Of a stretch of 64,000 nucleotides of DNA, positions 21,001 to 24,000 are shown in pieces; position 1 is the stretch's first letter, and every line of letters begins with the position of its first letter. Source of the DNA: a plasmid. Position numbers: made by a program. The stretch lies in sequence record NZ_CP024444.1, one strand, 5' to 3'.

Positions 21001-24000
21001 GTTTTTATCACGCCATTTTTCAGATGTCGCTACGCTGATTGCCACCACGCAGTTATCATCTGAACCAAAAACCTTTGGGTCCATACCAACGGCACCCATT
21101 AAATTTACTTTATTCTTCATACTAGCCTCTTGTTCGCTAAAAATTAATTGGCAAGGCTAGTACAATCTAGCCAGCCGACGGGTAATTACACCAAGTCATT
21201 AAACCATCTTTAAAGTCGCTACGATACCACCACGTCTTGTTGTTATCAAATACTTGTTGGCCTACTGCACCATATACAGGTTCCGTCCAACAGTGCTCAA
21301 GATTATTGCGAATGCGTGGACTACGATTAGCAACAGGTTGTTCAAGAGCTGCATACCCAACATGGTTAATCGAGATAAACAGCTTGGCATCATTTTGCGC
21401 CTCCATGATTTTAGCCAGCGCATCCTGCCCCTCAATCTGATTTAGACTTTCACTGGCATCGTACAAATAAGCGGCTTGTGGGGCAGGCGTGTTGTTAAAG
21501 ACACCAATTTCGCGTGAGATTACCTCGCCACCGCACAGGTGTTTCACTTCCTGCGTTTGTAGGTACTCATAAAGTGCACGGTTATCACTACCTTGTAGTA
21601 GCAAAACCAAAGTGATGGTTGCACCAAACTCGGTATCTTTGAGTGAATACAAGCGTTTATTTACTTTTCCGGTCAAACCATCTTTTGGTAAGAAATCGCC
21701 ATTGTATTTCACATCGGTTAGACCGATTGAAAAGCGAATAGATTGACCAATGCTTTTTTCGATATTGGCGACATAGGTACCAAGGCTTGTAATGTTAGGA
21801 TGTCCAACACCCACAAAGCCACTTAAGATACTGGCGTTTTCAATAACCAGGCGCACACCAATCCCAGTAAATAAAGCCTGTGGGTCGTTTTCGATGAATT
21901 TATCAATACTCTTAGCCAGCACAGACACACTGCCATGCTGTTCCACCATCAATTCAGTATAGCGAAAATTGTCACGCGGATTTTTGCAAAGCGTGAGCAA
22001 GCGTGTGTGATAGTAGCCATGTTCCCGATACTCTTTGGTGCGCTCAAAAATCTCACTTAGCAACCCAAGTGACTCAAGCGAGCTGATTGAGTAATACGAA
22101 AATGGCTGCTCGCCAGCAACAGGTTTGCTGTTTATAGGTATGATTGATTGACGCGTATTGCGGTAAAACTCTGTTGGGATGAAACGCCGTTGCTCATTGG
22201 TTTCATTGGCGACAAATGCCTCGTCCACCCAACGTTCAAAATCATGAATATTTTCATCGCGTGGCACCCAAGCCCAATAACGACGCTCAATATTGGTAGT
22301 GGCGGATGTCACATAATGATTAGGGATATTGCCAATCGGTTTTGCACATAAAGGCATTTGTGGTGAGTTTGGGTCAATGAGTTGTTGGGCATGAGTGACT
22401 AACAAAAGGGTACTCCGTTGAAATTATGAGTCATGTGATTTTCCCTTGCCAATATAGACTTTCCAAGTTTCGTTGGTGGCTAAGGCATCGGTATAGCCGT
22501 CCTTGCGTGGGATGCGTTTTTTAACGTGTTTGGTATTATCAACAAACTGAAAGTCATTGACGTCATGTGGTGCAAAAATAATACCGTTACTGTAAAAATG
22601 AGTGCTAATGTACTCATTATTAATCTTTTGTTTACTATTGTCGAATAAATAAATTCGAGCACGTAAATCTACAAACTCACGATGACAGACCAGTCGACCA
22701 TCCGGATGGTTTTTGAAAAAATCTTCAAGCCTATGGACATCGCGTAAATCAAATTCACCACAGCAATTTAATACCGCACCGACGCTACCAAAAGAGCGTG
22801 AGTCCTTTGCTTTGTTTTTGTAAACCGCAATCTTTTTCACGTTAAAGAAAAAATGGGGCAGACCTAAGTGGGCTGGCAAGGTAGATTTGCTATTGATGGT
22901 GCTTGCTTCAGGGTACTGTTTGAATGCTAAATCCAAGGCTGGCTTAAACAACCGCTGGTAAGCCTTAACATCTTCAAAATCACTTCCCCATATTGGCAAG
23001 TCTTTACTTAATAGCACCAAATTATCACTTTCTTTGGGCGGATAATGCTCGTGCGTAAGCTCGCTGGCCAAAGCTATTAAACTTTCCAGTTCTTTTTTGT
23101 CTTTTTTTACAGGAACCGTGGGTTTCTTAAGGGTCATGGTAAAATAAATATAAGTATATTAATATGATTTAATAGGCATTATATAATAAAAATACAAACT
23201 ATTGGCAAGAAATCAAACTATATACAATTGATACTATCTATATACAATTGATACTATTTTTAGTATCTTTCAATTAACAATATGAATTTTAATCAAGTAG
23301 AAGGTGATTATGTCGAACATGCCAGCCACAATTGAGTCAAGCAATCCCGTTGTAGATGATGGTGTCGAGTATTTTGAAAACGGCTGTCTATGCTATCTTT
23401 CAGGCAAAATTTCAAAAGGCGATAGCTTTGAGTATTATTATGACAATTGTACCTGTACTCGCCACCCTGAAAGTGCCAATAGACTCTGTTGGGATAAAGA
23501 TAAACACGCTAGACAAGCTGCGCTTGAAATCATCAAAAAGCAGCATTCTCACTGGTTTGATTAAACAGCTGTTGTTTTATACAACATTAGTCACGCTCTT
23601 CTAAGTTATCTTCAGCGTGCATGTTTACAAATATCGGGGGCAAAAACGTTAGTTTGAATTGCTTGCGCCCTTCACCGTATCGGTAGCCATGCCAATGCGC
23701 TTGTCTGACATGGGGCTGCATCGTCACGCCAGTCGGCATGCCTTTCGACTCTTGTGCCTTAAACGCACGAATTTGCCCACCAAGCCGTCGCCCGATAAAA
23801 AACTTGGTTGGTTCGTTGGGTGCGATAAAACGCTTGGTTTTCGGGTGAATTGGCGGTAAATGAGAGAGCGACGCGATATCCACCTCGTTTAATGAACTAT
23901 CTTCAATTTGTGGACGTTCAACGCATAATAGTAATAATGCCGATAAGAAAAGTCGTGAGTTGTTTAAATGCATGTCCCATATTTCAGGGGTGATGTGTTG

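What the first reader, a model, noticed from the sequence alone, without database searches (positions are those of the whole stretch)
21167..23137. Adjacent 412-aa and 237-aa proteins with no detectable family, 18 bp apart, directly upstream of ssb
This is a tightly spaced gene pair (18-bp gap; the second gene ends 46 bp before ssb). No catalytic or DNA-binding motifs are discernible by eye, and no TM or signal sequences are present. Operon geometry with ssb and the neighbouring control region, which carries direct and inverted repeats, suggests a coordinated early function. This is the strongest place in the window for a genuinely undescribed system.
Basis: seen in the sequence. Interest (0 to 1): 0.7.

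Follow-up and report, generated by a model that had tools for sequence, protein, structure and literature searches.

The report
Orphan mini Cas8/Cas5 on Moraxella plasmid
The larger of the two "unknown" genes is a stripped-down, stand-alone copy of a CRISPR (type I-F) Cascade subunit carried by a Moraxella osloensis plasmid, most likely used as a decoy to disarm the host's CRISPR immunity; the smaller gene is an unrelated conserved protein of unknown function, and the two are not a conserved pair.

Summary
The ORFs and their spacing are real. Both genes lie on the minus strand: 237 aa, an 18-bp gap, 412 aa, a 46-bp gap, then ssb, with the only terminator-like hairpin after ssb.

The family is always solitary: no cas7, cas6 or CRISPR array is beside it. 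It sits on plasmids, phages and prophages. Two divergent members abut AcrIF11, and two lie next to AcrVA2-like genes, including this window's 361-aa neighbour.

My best reading is a Cas-mimic anti-CRISPR against type I-F, analogous to AcrIB3/AcrIB4. This is inferred, not tested.

The 237-aa protein has homologues in Acinetobacter plasmids and chromosomes with different downstream partners and no Cas8/5-like gene, and none of the 15 other loci carrying a Cas8/5-like gene has it. The pair is therefore not a conserved system. Its function remains unknown.

Verdict: a new member of a known kind, of moderate interest.

The parts
21167..22405 (-). Orphan miniature Cas8/Cas5-fusion homologue (412 aa, TTG start) with no counterpart to a ~95-residue internal Cas8/5 segment (read as the helical bundle); candidate Cas-mimic anti-CRISPR against type I-F
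22424..23137 (-). 237-aa conserved protein of unknown function, found on Moraxellaceae plasmids and chromosomes; first gene of the putative transcription unit
   Evidence: No hit in Pfam, NCBIfam, PADLOC, PHROGs or PDB. Homologues at 30-44% identity occur in Logan contigs (L002, L003) and in 69 PLSDB records, mostly large Acinetobacter plasmids. The AF2 model failed (pLDDT 34). Conserved motifs are CGxF and LVxHRxxxDxR.
20617..21120 (-). Plasmid ssb, last gene of the putative unit
   Evidence: Pfam SSB at 7.5e-23. AGAGG RBS lies 5 nt upstream of the ATG. A terminator-like hairpin directly follows.
20573..20594 (-). Terminator-like hairpin with a T-run after ssb
   Evidence: 9-pair stem followed by TTTTT. 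No such site lies between the 237-aa, 412-aa and ssb genes on the minus strand.
23218..23257 (.). Two perfect 20-bp direct repeats (CTATATACAATTGATACTAT) in the divergent promoter region upstream of the 237-aa gene; putative operator
   Evidence: On the minus strand a TTGCCA / TATAAT-like pair follows the repeats, but its spacing is ambiguous and the consensus scan did not list it.
23304..23564 (+). Divergent 86-aa Cys-rich ORF, function unknown
   Evidence: Matches phrog_20444 at 1.4e-6. Annotated or called as an 81-86 aa gene in pMOXF1 and all related contigs.
23587..24672 (-). AcrVA2/FinQ-family protein (361 aa), upstream neighbour on the same strand
   Evidence: Matches PDB 7ci1 (AcrVA2) at E=1.8e-24, with the HxRxxH motif aligned. 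Precomputed Pfam PF26125 AcrVA2-like in identical contigs. Matches phrog_6160 at 5e-35.
24676..26175 (-). Rep3-family replication initiator heading the co-directional block; its iterons lie at 26249-26454
   Evidence: Pfam Rep3_N and Rep3_C. NCBIfam RepM at 1.6e-23, below the curated cut-off. 21-22-bp repeats.

Best explanation
The 412-aa gene encodes a stand-alone, shortened homologue of the Cas8/Cas5 fusion that forms the large-subunit end of type I-F (I-F3-like) Cascade. It keeps the Cas8 N-terminal domain and the whole Cas5f domain. It has no counterpart to a ~95-residue internal segment of V. cholerae Cas8/5, which I take to be the flexible helical bundle. In canonical I-F complexes that bundle recruits Cas2/3, and in I-F3 complexes it engages TniQ and locks the R-loop.

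The gene lies in a co-directional accessory block of a Moraxella osloensis plasmid: Rep, AcrVA2-like, 237 aa, Cas8/5-like, ssb, small ORFs, then a pentapeptide-repeat protein.

I propose that it is an anti-CRISPR of the 'defective subunit' kind. When expressed by the plasmid, it would compete with the host's Cas8f/Cas5f (or Cas5fv in I-F2) for the crRNA 5' handle and for Cas7f. The resulting Cascade-like particles could not license Cas2/3, or crRNA would simply be sequestered, and the plasmid would be protected.

Shown: homology, fold, the missing internal segment, solitary genomic status, residence on mobile elements, and adjacency of homologues to known acr genes. Inferred: binding to host Cascade parts and inhibition of interference.

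The 237-aa gene is probably co-transcribed here, but it is an independent conserved gene of unknown function and not a dedicated partner.
For: Homology and fold.
- Family profile E=1.8e-27 to V. cholerae Cas8/5, 1e-18 to Cas5f and 1e-7 to P. aeruginosa Csy2.
- 48 of 54 family members hit Cas5f, 44 of 54 hit Cas8/5f and 32 of 54 hit Cas8f in PADLOC.

Missing internal segment.
- Against full-length V. cholerae Cas8 (6lnb_H, 640 aa), the profile splits into residues 175-271 and 366-625. Against the 511-residue chain 6pig_G, which is 129 residues shorter, it aligns as one stretch.
- The model contains no helical-bundle domain.
- The bundle's role is described in PMC12774636.

Orphan status.
- The window has no CRISPR array or repeat and no Csy1, Csy3, Csy4 or Cas3 homologue.
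- No Csy3 or Csy4 lies next to the gene in 15 other family loci, apart from L004 where they are 7 kb away.

Anti-CRISPR context.
- P0007 lies in a prophage end between an AcrVA2-like gene and AcrIF11, with an overlapping small gene that gives only a faint HTH hit.
- P0008 overlaps AcrIF11 by 4 nt.
- The window gene lies 1.2 kb downstream of an AcrVA2-family gene.
- Other members are preceded by small acidic proteins and, by eye, RHH-like proteins. Some lie beside phage tail genes or in an integrase-bearing element.

Host and precedent.
- The host species carries I-F or I-F2 systems (PMC7380525, PMC11343773).
- AcrIB3 (a Cas5 homologue) and AcrIB4 (the Cas8b C-terminal domain) act as faulty Cascade subunits. 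Orphan viral cas5f and cas8f genes were listed, including one in a Pasteurella provirus (10.1101/2023.06.24.545427).
- ssb and acr genes cluster on one strand in plasmid anti-defence islands (PMC11541004).
Against: - No experiment has been done. Guilt by association rests on a handful of contexts: 2 with AcrIF11 and 2 with AcrVA2-like, out of about 12 distinct contexts.
- AcrVA2/FinQ relatives are widespread and often do not target Cas12a, so that neighbour is only weak evidence.
- One homologue (P0005, L004) sits on a plasmid that itself encodes a full I-F system with arrays. A pan-I-F poison subunit would harm that system.
- The family is closest to I-F3 (transposon) Cas8/5, not to the I-F1 or I-F2 proteins of the likely host, so compatibility with host Cas7f and crRNA is untested.
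- No oriT or relaxase was located, so 'leading region' is an analogy only. MOB-suite types pMOXF1 as non-mobilizable.
Confidence: 0.55

Rival explanations
1. Alternative large subunit that hijacks host Cascade. The mini Cas8/5 would assemble with host Cas7f, Cas6f and crRNA into a functional, Cas2/3-independent DNA-binding complex that the plasmid or phage uses for itself, for example CRISPRi-like silencing, competition with other elements, or recruitment of a variable neighbouring protein. This goes beyond simply inactivating immunity.
For: - The nearest relatives are the nuclease-free I-F3 Cas8/5 proteins, which serve RNA-guided transposition.
- Both the Cas8 and Cas5 parts are conserved along their whole length.
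- One member co-resides with a complete plasmid-borne I-F system and its arrays.
Against: - No conserved partner gene was found across contexts.
- No TniQ or Tns genes are nearby.
- The helical bundle that couples Cas8/5 to downstream effectors has no counterpart in the family.
- The family neighbours are acr-type genes.
Confidence: 0.12
2. Exapted RNA- or DNA-binding protein with a role unrelated to CRISPR, for example in plasmid establishment or replication together with SSB and Rep. Only the RAMP fold would be retained from its Cas ancestry.
For: - It sits between Rep and ssb in a block conserved in at least 8 related contigs.
- L004 also has Rep3 and SSB nearby.
- Identity to bona fide Cas5f is very low: only 13 of 35 residues in a local match to the co-resident Csy2.
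Against: - Phage and prophage members have no Rep or ssb nearby.
- In pMOXF1 an IS5 element sits where ssb is here, while the gene itself is kept.
- The motifs shared with Cas8/5 are the strongly conserved ones.
Confidence: 0.15
3. One reading: the 237-aa and 412-aa proteins form a dedicated two-component system of a new kind.
For: - An 18-bp gap, the same strand, an RBS, and no intervening terminator.
- The pair is invariant in the M. osloensis plasmid lineage.
Against: - That lineage is near-identical DNA, so it is not independent evidence.
- 237-aa homologues occur in 68 other plasmid or chromosome records without a Cas8/5-like gene: the 412-aa tblastn finds only pMOXF1 in PLSDB.
- Their downstream partners differ.
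- None of 15 other Cas8/5-like loci has a 237-aa homologue.
Confidence: 0.08
4. Decaying remnant of a type I-F or I-F3 system or CAST, with no current function.
For: - Shorter than bona fide Cas8/5 (412 aa against about 640 aa).
- No other cas genes are present.
- The window is IS-rich, with TnpB twice and IS5.
Against: - 64 clusters at 50% identity keep the same roughly 400-aa architecture from residue 1, with conserved motifs, at only 24-32% pairwise identity.
- The ORF is intact in contigs from 168 blocks of the collection.
- The AF2 model is confident and compact.
- No Tn7 genes lie nearby.
Confidence: 0.04

Closest known systems
Cas8/Cas5 fusion of type I-F3 TniQ-Cascade (V. cholerae Tn6677; PDB 6pig, 6pij, 6lnb, 6vbw)
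   Same: - Profile E=1.8e-27.
- Shared Cas5 motifs: G-(I/L)-P-x-(I/L)-T-A..G.VH..ER, and GY.LLE.P...(S)R..Y.HAWAE, written here as the family consensus. V. cholerae Cas8/5 has HAIAE at the corresponding position.
- Cas8 N-terminal domain fused to Cas5.
   Different: - About 230 residues shorter.
- No counterpart to Vc Cas8/5 residues ~272-365, which I take to be the helical bundle, and a shorter N-terminus.
- Not encoded with cas7, cas6, tniQ, tnsABC or a CRISPR array.
- Only about 14-18% identity.
AcrIB3 and AcrIB4 (Listeria; Katz et al., 10.1101/2023.06.24.545427 / Nature 2024)
   Same: - Cas-subunit homologues (Cas5; Cas8b C-terminal domain) encoded as orphans on mobile elements in acr loci.
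- AcrIB3 was shown to be incorporated into Cascade as a faulty subunit. Loss of a functional element (the Cas5 'hook') underlies inhibition.
- That is the same logic proposed here for the missing helical-bundle segment.
   Different: - Different subtype (I-B versus I-F).
- Here a single polypeptide covers both Cas8 and Cas5.
- Much more diverged from bona fide Cas proteins (about 15-20% identity versus 38%).
- No experimental evidence.
Cas5f (Csy2) and Cas8f (Csy1) of canonical type I-F1, and Cas5 of I-F-HNH Cascade (8w1p_H)
   Same: - The N-terminal part gives weak Cas8f matches.
   Different: - Fused rather than two proteins.
- No helical bundle for Cas2/3 recruitment.
- Solitary.
AcrIF3 (mimic of the Cas8f helical bundle)
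   Same: A type I-F inhibitor that works by mimicking part of Cas8f (mentioned).
   Different: - AcrIF3 mimics the very domain that is missing here, and it binds Cas2/3.
- It has no sequence homology to Cas8f.
- The mechanism is therefore complementary rather than the same.

Membership tests
Cas8/Cas5 (type I-F) Cascade large-subunit family | Cas5f RAMP domain detectable by sequence and fold | tested here: met
   [not shown]
Cas8/Cas5 (type I-F) Cascade large-subunit family | Cas8f-type N-terminal domain fused upstream of Cas5 | tested here: met
   [not shown]
Cas8/Cas5 (type I-F) Cascade large-subunit family | Helical-bundle domain (Cas2/3 recruitment in I-F1; TniQ contact and R-loop locking in I-F3) | tested here: not met
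   V. cholerae Cas8 residues ~272-365 have no counterpart in the family (split alignment). The AF2 model has no helical-bundle domain. Equating that segment with the helical bundle rests on my own knowledge of the V. cholerae structure.
Cas8/Cas5 (type I-F) Cascade large-subunit family | Encoded in a cas operon with cas7f and cas6f, next to a CRISPR array | tested here: not met
   No array or repeat in the window. No Csy1, Csy3, Csy4 or Cas3 by phmmer or PADLOC. The same holds for 15 other family loci, except L004, where an I-F system lies 7 kb away.
Cas8/Cas5 (type I-F) Cascade large-subunit family | Binds the crRNA 5' handle and caps the Cas7 filament | not testable with these tools
   Needs co-purification or a predicted or solved complex structure. 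Only conservation of the Cas5 core motifs is seen.
Cas-homologue anti-CRISPRs (AcrIB3/AcrIB4 type) | Homologue of a Cas subunit encoded as an orphan on a mobile element | tested here: met
   Found on a plasmid, in Pasteurella phages, in a prophage end, in IMG/VR contigs and in an integrase-bearing element in Hafnia.
Cas-homologue anti-CRISPRs (AcrIB3/AcrIB4 type) | Located in an acr locus, next to known acr or aca genes | tested here: met
   AcrIF11 is adjacent in two divergent members. An AcrVA2-like gene is adjacent or nearby in two. In this window only the AcrVA2-family gene is present. No AcrIF11 homologue was found in the window.
Cas-homologue anti-CRISPRs (AcrIB3/AcrIB4 type) | Inhibits the cognate CRISPR-Cas system | not testable with these tools
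   Requires a plasmid- or phage-targeting assay in an I-F host.
AcrVA2/FinQ family (the 361-aa neighbour) | Sequence homology including the C-terminal HxRxxH residues needed for AcrVA2 activity (H286, R288, H291) | tested here: met
   7ci1_A at E=1.8e-24. 'PHVRQAHWHGY' aligns to 'PHIRRGHWHGY'. Residue roles are from 10.1101/2022.11.29.518452. The target of this homologue is unknown.
Two-gene system (237 aa + 412 aa) | Conserved co-occurrence in unrelated replicons | tested here: not met
   each family occurs widely without the other.

The most novel reading that the evidence does not exclude
The mini Cas8/5 is not merely a poison subunit. It would be a mobile-element-encoded replacement 'head' that converts the host's own type I-F or I-F2 crRNA-Cas7-Cas6 filaments into nuclease-blind, DNA-binding complexes working for the plasmid or phage. 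That could mean guide-dependent silencing of rivals or of host genes, or blocking RNA-guided (I-F3 CAST) transposition into the element. In effect it would be a one-gene parasitic takeover of a Cascade.
Probability: 0.1. Interest if true: 0.8.

Novelty: new member of a known kind. Interest (0 to 1): 0.5.

Why it matters
If the protein inhibits type I-F immunity, it would be the first Cas-derived anti-CRISPR for the I-F subtype. It would also be the first built from a fused Cas8-Cas5. That would extend the 'faulty subunit' route of Acr evolution from Listeria I-B to Gammaproteobacteria.

A roughly 400-aa protein that caps Cascade without licensing Cas2/3 or TniQ could also serve as an off-switch for I-F Cascade and I-F3 CAST genome-engineering tools.

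The family is annotated everywhere as 'hypothetical protein'. It recurs in many M. osloensis plasmid contigs, so recognising it improves plasmid and phage annotation.

Tried and rejected
- **Word-indexed homology search.** It returned only the query's own cluster for the 412-aa protein, and only 3 hits even with the family profile. Only the exhaustive HMMER search recovered the family.
- **Wider locus retrieval.** The search for related loci failed with the broad alignments. A hand-made degenerate DNA pattern on genome contigs found only 3 loci.
- **237-aa structure.** The AF2 model was unusable (pLDDT 34 with 4 sequences). A profile against PDB and a member-wise Pfam scan found nothing.
- **Racr or solitary I-F repeat in the window.** Rfam found none. 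My hairpin+TTAGAAA scan gave one out-of-register match inside a coding ORF at 18959-18986, which I judged to be chance.
- **A link between the 237-aa family and type I-F.** An A. baumannii homologue lies 2.2 kb from cas1. I rejected the link because the same flank, 98% identical, exists without cas genes.
- **The L002 302-aa partner as a diverged Cas8/5.** No similarity was found.
- **The L016 upstream 171-aa protein as AcrIF11.** No similarity was found.
- **The afdb50 fold library** was unavailable.
- **The 207-aa and 170-aa downstream ORFs** gave no PDB hits.
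Full report
**Observation**

The window is about 39-40% GC. Positions 623-5586 of the query 20500-26600 are 96% identical to Moraxella osloensis plasmid pMOXF1, CP040258.1.

On the minus strand, the ORF listing gives:
- a Rep3 initiator at 24676-26175
- a 361-aa ORF at 23587-24672
- a 237-aa ORF at 22424-23137 (ATG start)
- a 412-aa ORF at 21167-22405 (TTG start)
- ssb at 20617-21120

A small divergent 86-aa ORF lies on the plus strand at 23304-23564.

The TTG start of the 412-aa ORF has GGAG 7 nt upstream. It also matches the N-terminus of the family, where T4 and H5 are nearly invariant. 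ssb has an AGAGG site 5 nt upstream of its ATG.

The only minus-strand terminator-like hairpin with a T-run in this stretch follows ssb at 20594-20573. A 237-412-ssb transcription unit is therefore plausible, but it is inferred. Upstream of the 237-aa gene are two perfect 20-bp direct repeats at 23218-23257.

**What the 412-aa protein is**

Single-sequence scans are nearly silent:
- Pfam Cas_Csy2 at E=0.18
- PADLOC Cas5f and Cas8/5f at about 1e-4
- nothing in NCBIfam, PHROGs or PDB

The word-indexed search of 5.8 billion proteins returned only its own cluster. The exhaustive HMMER search of 1.84 billion representatives found 64 relatives at E<=1e-3. Most are 364-436 aa and align from residue 1.

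A 54-sequence alignment (A1) was used as a profile. Against PDB sequences it matched:
- the V. cholerae Tn6677 Cas8/Cas5 fusion at E=1.8e-27
- V. parahaemolyticus Csy2/Cas8 at about 1e-23
- Cas5f of the I-F-HNH Cascade at 1e-18
- P. aeruginosa Csy2 at 1e-7

Member by member, 48 of 54 hit PADLOC Cas5f, 44 of 54 hit Cas8/5f, and 32 of 54 hit Cas8f.

**What is missing from it**

Against the full 640-residue V. cholerae Cas8 (6lnb_H), the profile splits in two. Positions 57-161 align to residues 175-271, and positions 149-388 align to residues 366-625. Against the 511-residue deposited chain 6pig_G, which is 129 residues shorter, it aligns as one stretch.

The family therefore has no counterpart to Vc Cas8/5 residues ~272-365. 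I take this segment to be the flexible helical-bundle domain; that identification rests on my own knowledge of the V. cholerae structure and was not checked here. The model also has no helical-bundle domain. This domain contacts TniQ and stabilises the PAM-distal R-loop in I-F3 (PMC12774636). From established knowledge of I-F1 Csy complexes, it is also the Cas2/3-recruitment element of Cas8f.

Part of the Cas8 N-terminus is absent too. The motifs shared with bona fide Cas8/5 are the strongly conserved Cas5 core motifs. In the family consensus these read GxPAITAxGGxVHxxER and GYAxLExPxxRxxxRxxYxHAWAEP; V. cholerae Cas8/5 has HAIAE at the last position.

**Genomic status**

The window has no CRISPR array and no repeat-like element:
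- TRF
- Rfam at gathering and permissive thresholds
- my own hairpin+TTAGAAA scan, which gave one out-of-register coding match

It also has no homologue of Csy1, Csy3, Csy4 or Cas3 (phmmer; PADLOC on ten large ORFs). The only Cas-like hits were two TnpB/IS605 OrfB genes.

Contexts of homologues:
- **P0007 (Moraxella sp. MAG).** It lies at a prophage end next to tail genes, between an AcrVA2-like gene (PF26125) and AcrIF11 (PF26151). A small overlapping gene there gives only a faint HTH_23 hit (E=0.043).
- **P0008.** It overlaps an upstream AcrIF11 gene by 4 nt, beside an OLD/TOPRIM+UvrD pair that looks like Gabija.
- **Pasteurella phages Pm86 and Pmp12.** They carry it next to the tail genes.
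- **Hafnia paralvei.** It lies in an element bearing an integrase.
- **IMG/VR.** Six contigs carry it.
- **P0005.** It is on a Rep3/SSB/PcfJ plasmid that also encodes csy1-4, cas3 and I-F arrays. The gene is 2 kb past the array and has only a 35-residue local match to the resident Csy2.

Across 16 loci compared (15 besides L004), local BLAST found no recurrent partner and no Cas7/Cas6 neighbour except in L004. Upstream genes are small acidic proteins and, judged by eye, small RHH-like proteins. That is the usual look of acr operons.

In the M. osloensis lineage the exact protein appears in 168 blocks of the assembly collection. It always sits in the same block: 551 aa (opposite strand), Rep, AcrVA2-like, 86 aa (opposite strand), 237, 412, SSB, five small ORFs, a pentapeptide-repeat protein, and a 170-aa ORF.

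**The neighbours**

The 361-aa protein is an AcrVA2/FinQ-family member. It matches 7ci1 at E=1.8e-24, and the HxRxxH residues required for AcrVA2 activity are aligned. That family is widespread on mobile elements, usually without Cas12a in the host. Its presence therefore marks a conflict locus rather than a specific target.

ssb together with co-oriented anti-defence genes is the signature of plasmid anti-defence islands (PMC11541004). I did not locate an oriT, and MOB-suite types pMOXF1 as non-mobilizable. This happens even though a Dot/Icm-like gene set is present at 58-64 kb.

**Mechanistic proposal**

M. osloensis strains carry type I-F (strain YV1, 114 spacers; PMC7380525) and I-F2 (strain CCUG 350; PMC11343773) systems.

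Katz et al. showed that orphan Cas5 and Cas8b-CTD homologues, AcrIB3 and AcrIB4, inhibit type I-B. AcrIB3 was shown to enter Cascade as a faulty subunit. Their table of orphan viral cas genes includes cas5f and cas8f hits, one of them in a Pasteurella multocida provirus. A 2026 review still lists only AcrIB3, AcrIB4 and AcrVIA2 as Cas-homologous Acrs.

By analogy, I propose that the bundle-less Cas8/5 competes for the crRNA 5' handle and for Cas7f. The resulting complexes could not license Cas2/3. This step is inference. The complete I-F system on the P0005 plasmid and the I-F3-like affinity of the family both call for caution.

**The 237-aa protein**

No library recognises it, and the four-sequence AF2 model is unusable. 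Its homologues are:
- 44% identical proteins on two related Dot/Icm-type plasmid contigs. There they are followed by an unrelated 302-305-aa protein.
- About 31% identical proteins on many 200-330-kb Acinetobacter plasmids. There they overlap a TraX-family gene, near SprT-like, helicase, SLT and an orphan 'CasE' gene.
- 33% identical chromosomal copies in A. baumannii, in a housekeeping neighbourhood.

In one A. baumannii strain an I-F cas1-cas3 locus begins 2.2 kb away. The same flank, 98% identical, exists without cas genes, so this is coincidence.

Conserved motifs are CGxF and LVxHRxxxDxR, and they suggest an enzyme or a binding pocket. I can only say that this is a conserved Moraxellaceae gene with variable downstream partners. 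Here it heads the transcription unit that carries the Cas8/5 homologue.

**Verdict**

One gene is a clear, though highly diverged, Cas8/Cas5 homologue. The pair is not a conserved system, and the ssb linkage is lineage-specific: in pMOXF1 an IS5 element sits where ssb is here.

The worthwhile finding is an uncharacterised family of orphan, compact Cas8/5 proteins on plasmids and phages, embedded in anti-CRISPR contexts. It is a directly testable candidate for the first Cas-mimic inhibitor of type I-F systems.

Noticed in passing
window 23587-24672 (-): The 361-aa protein directly after Rep is an AcrVA2/FinQ-family member (PDB 7ci1 at E=1.8e-24) with the catalytically important HxRxxH motif conserved. 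Its target in M. osloensis is unknown.
   Followed up: partly
L011 1484-2128 (Acinetobacter pittii pC54_001): A solitary gene annotated 'type I-E Cas6/CasE' lies about 5 kb from the 237-aa homologue on large Acinetobacter plasmids. It may be another orphan cas gene in a plasmid accessory region.
   Followed up: no
P0018, P0041, P0044 (family members of 510-553 aa): Longer members of the Cas8/5-like family carry terminal extensions. By eye these resemble DNA-binding modules: an RHH-like tail in P0044, Cys-rich zinc-ribbon repeats in P0041, and an AP2-like tail in P0018. They could be Acr-Aca-type fusions. Pfam does not detect any of these extensions.
   Followed up: partly
L037 7741-10555 versus L012: In A. 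baumannii the type I-F cas1-cas3 locus is inserted about 2 kb downstream of the chromosomal 237-aa homologue. A strain without CRISPR has thiE and hemL at that position. The proximity is an insertion-site coincidence.
   Followed up: yes
window 17480-18235 (-): A pentapeptide-repeat protein of 251 aa (Pentapeptide_4 at 1.4e-21) lies in the same co-directional block downstream of ssb. From my own knowledge, proteins of this kind (Qnr, MfpA) act as DNA mimics, so an anti-defence role is conceivable.
   Followed up: no
window 18797-18942: A perfect 73-bp tandem duplication (2.0 copies, 100% identity) overlaps a small minus-strand ORF at 18835-19026. It may be a recent duplication that alters the small gene relative to related contigs.
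   Followed up: no
window 20413-20645: An imperfect direct repeat of about 114 bp (76-80% identity) overlaps the 3' end of ssb and extends downstream of it. Each copy holds a terminator-like hairpin.
   Followed up: no
window 2412-3545 (-) and 15776-16909 (+): Two TnpB / IS605 OrfB (Cas12f-like) genes. PADLOC Cas12f at 2.6e-39 for the first, and Pfam Cas12f1-like_TNB at 2.1e-23 for the second.
   Followed up: partly
window 6460-9174, 9336-12116 and 12724-13911: A second Rep3-type replicon (Rep at 7768-9174, with 21-23-bp iterons at 6460-7444), an MmeI-family restriction-modification enzyme (926 aa) and a Fic-domain protein. The plasmid is a multi-replicon mosaic.
   Followed up: partly
window 53030-63920: A Dot/Icm-like type IVB secretion gene set (DotI/IcmL and DotH/IcmK homologues at 58303-60472), syntenic with contigs L002 and L003. 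In pMOXF1 this set directly follows Rep, so the window carries about 27 kb of extra IS-rich DNA in between.
   Followed up: partly
L004 3535-3650 and 7404-7973: A plasmid-borne type I-F system (csy1-4, cas3) has two arrays with repeat GTTTGCCACCGTGTAGGTGGTTTAGAAA, on the same plasmid as a Cas8/5-like orphan. How the two coexist is unexplained.
   Followed up: partly
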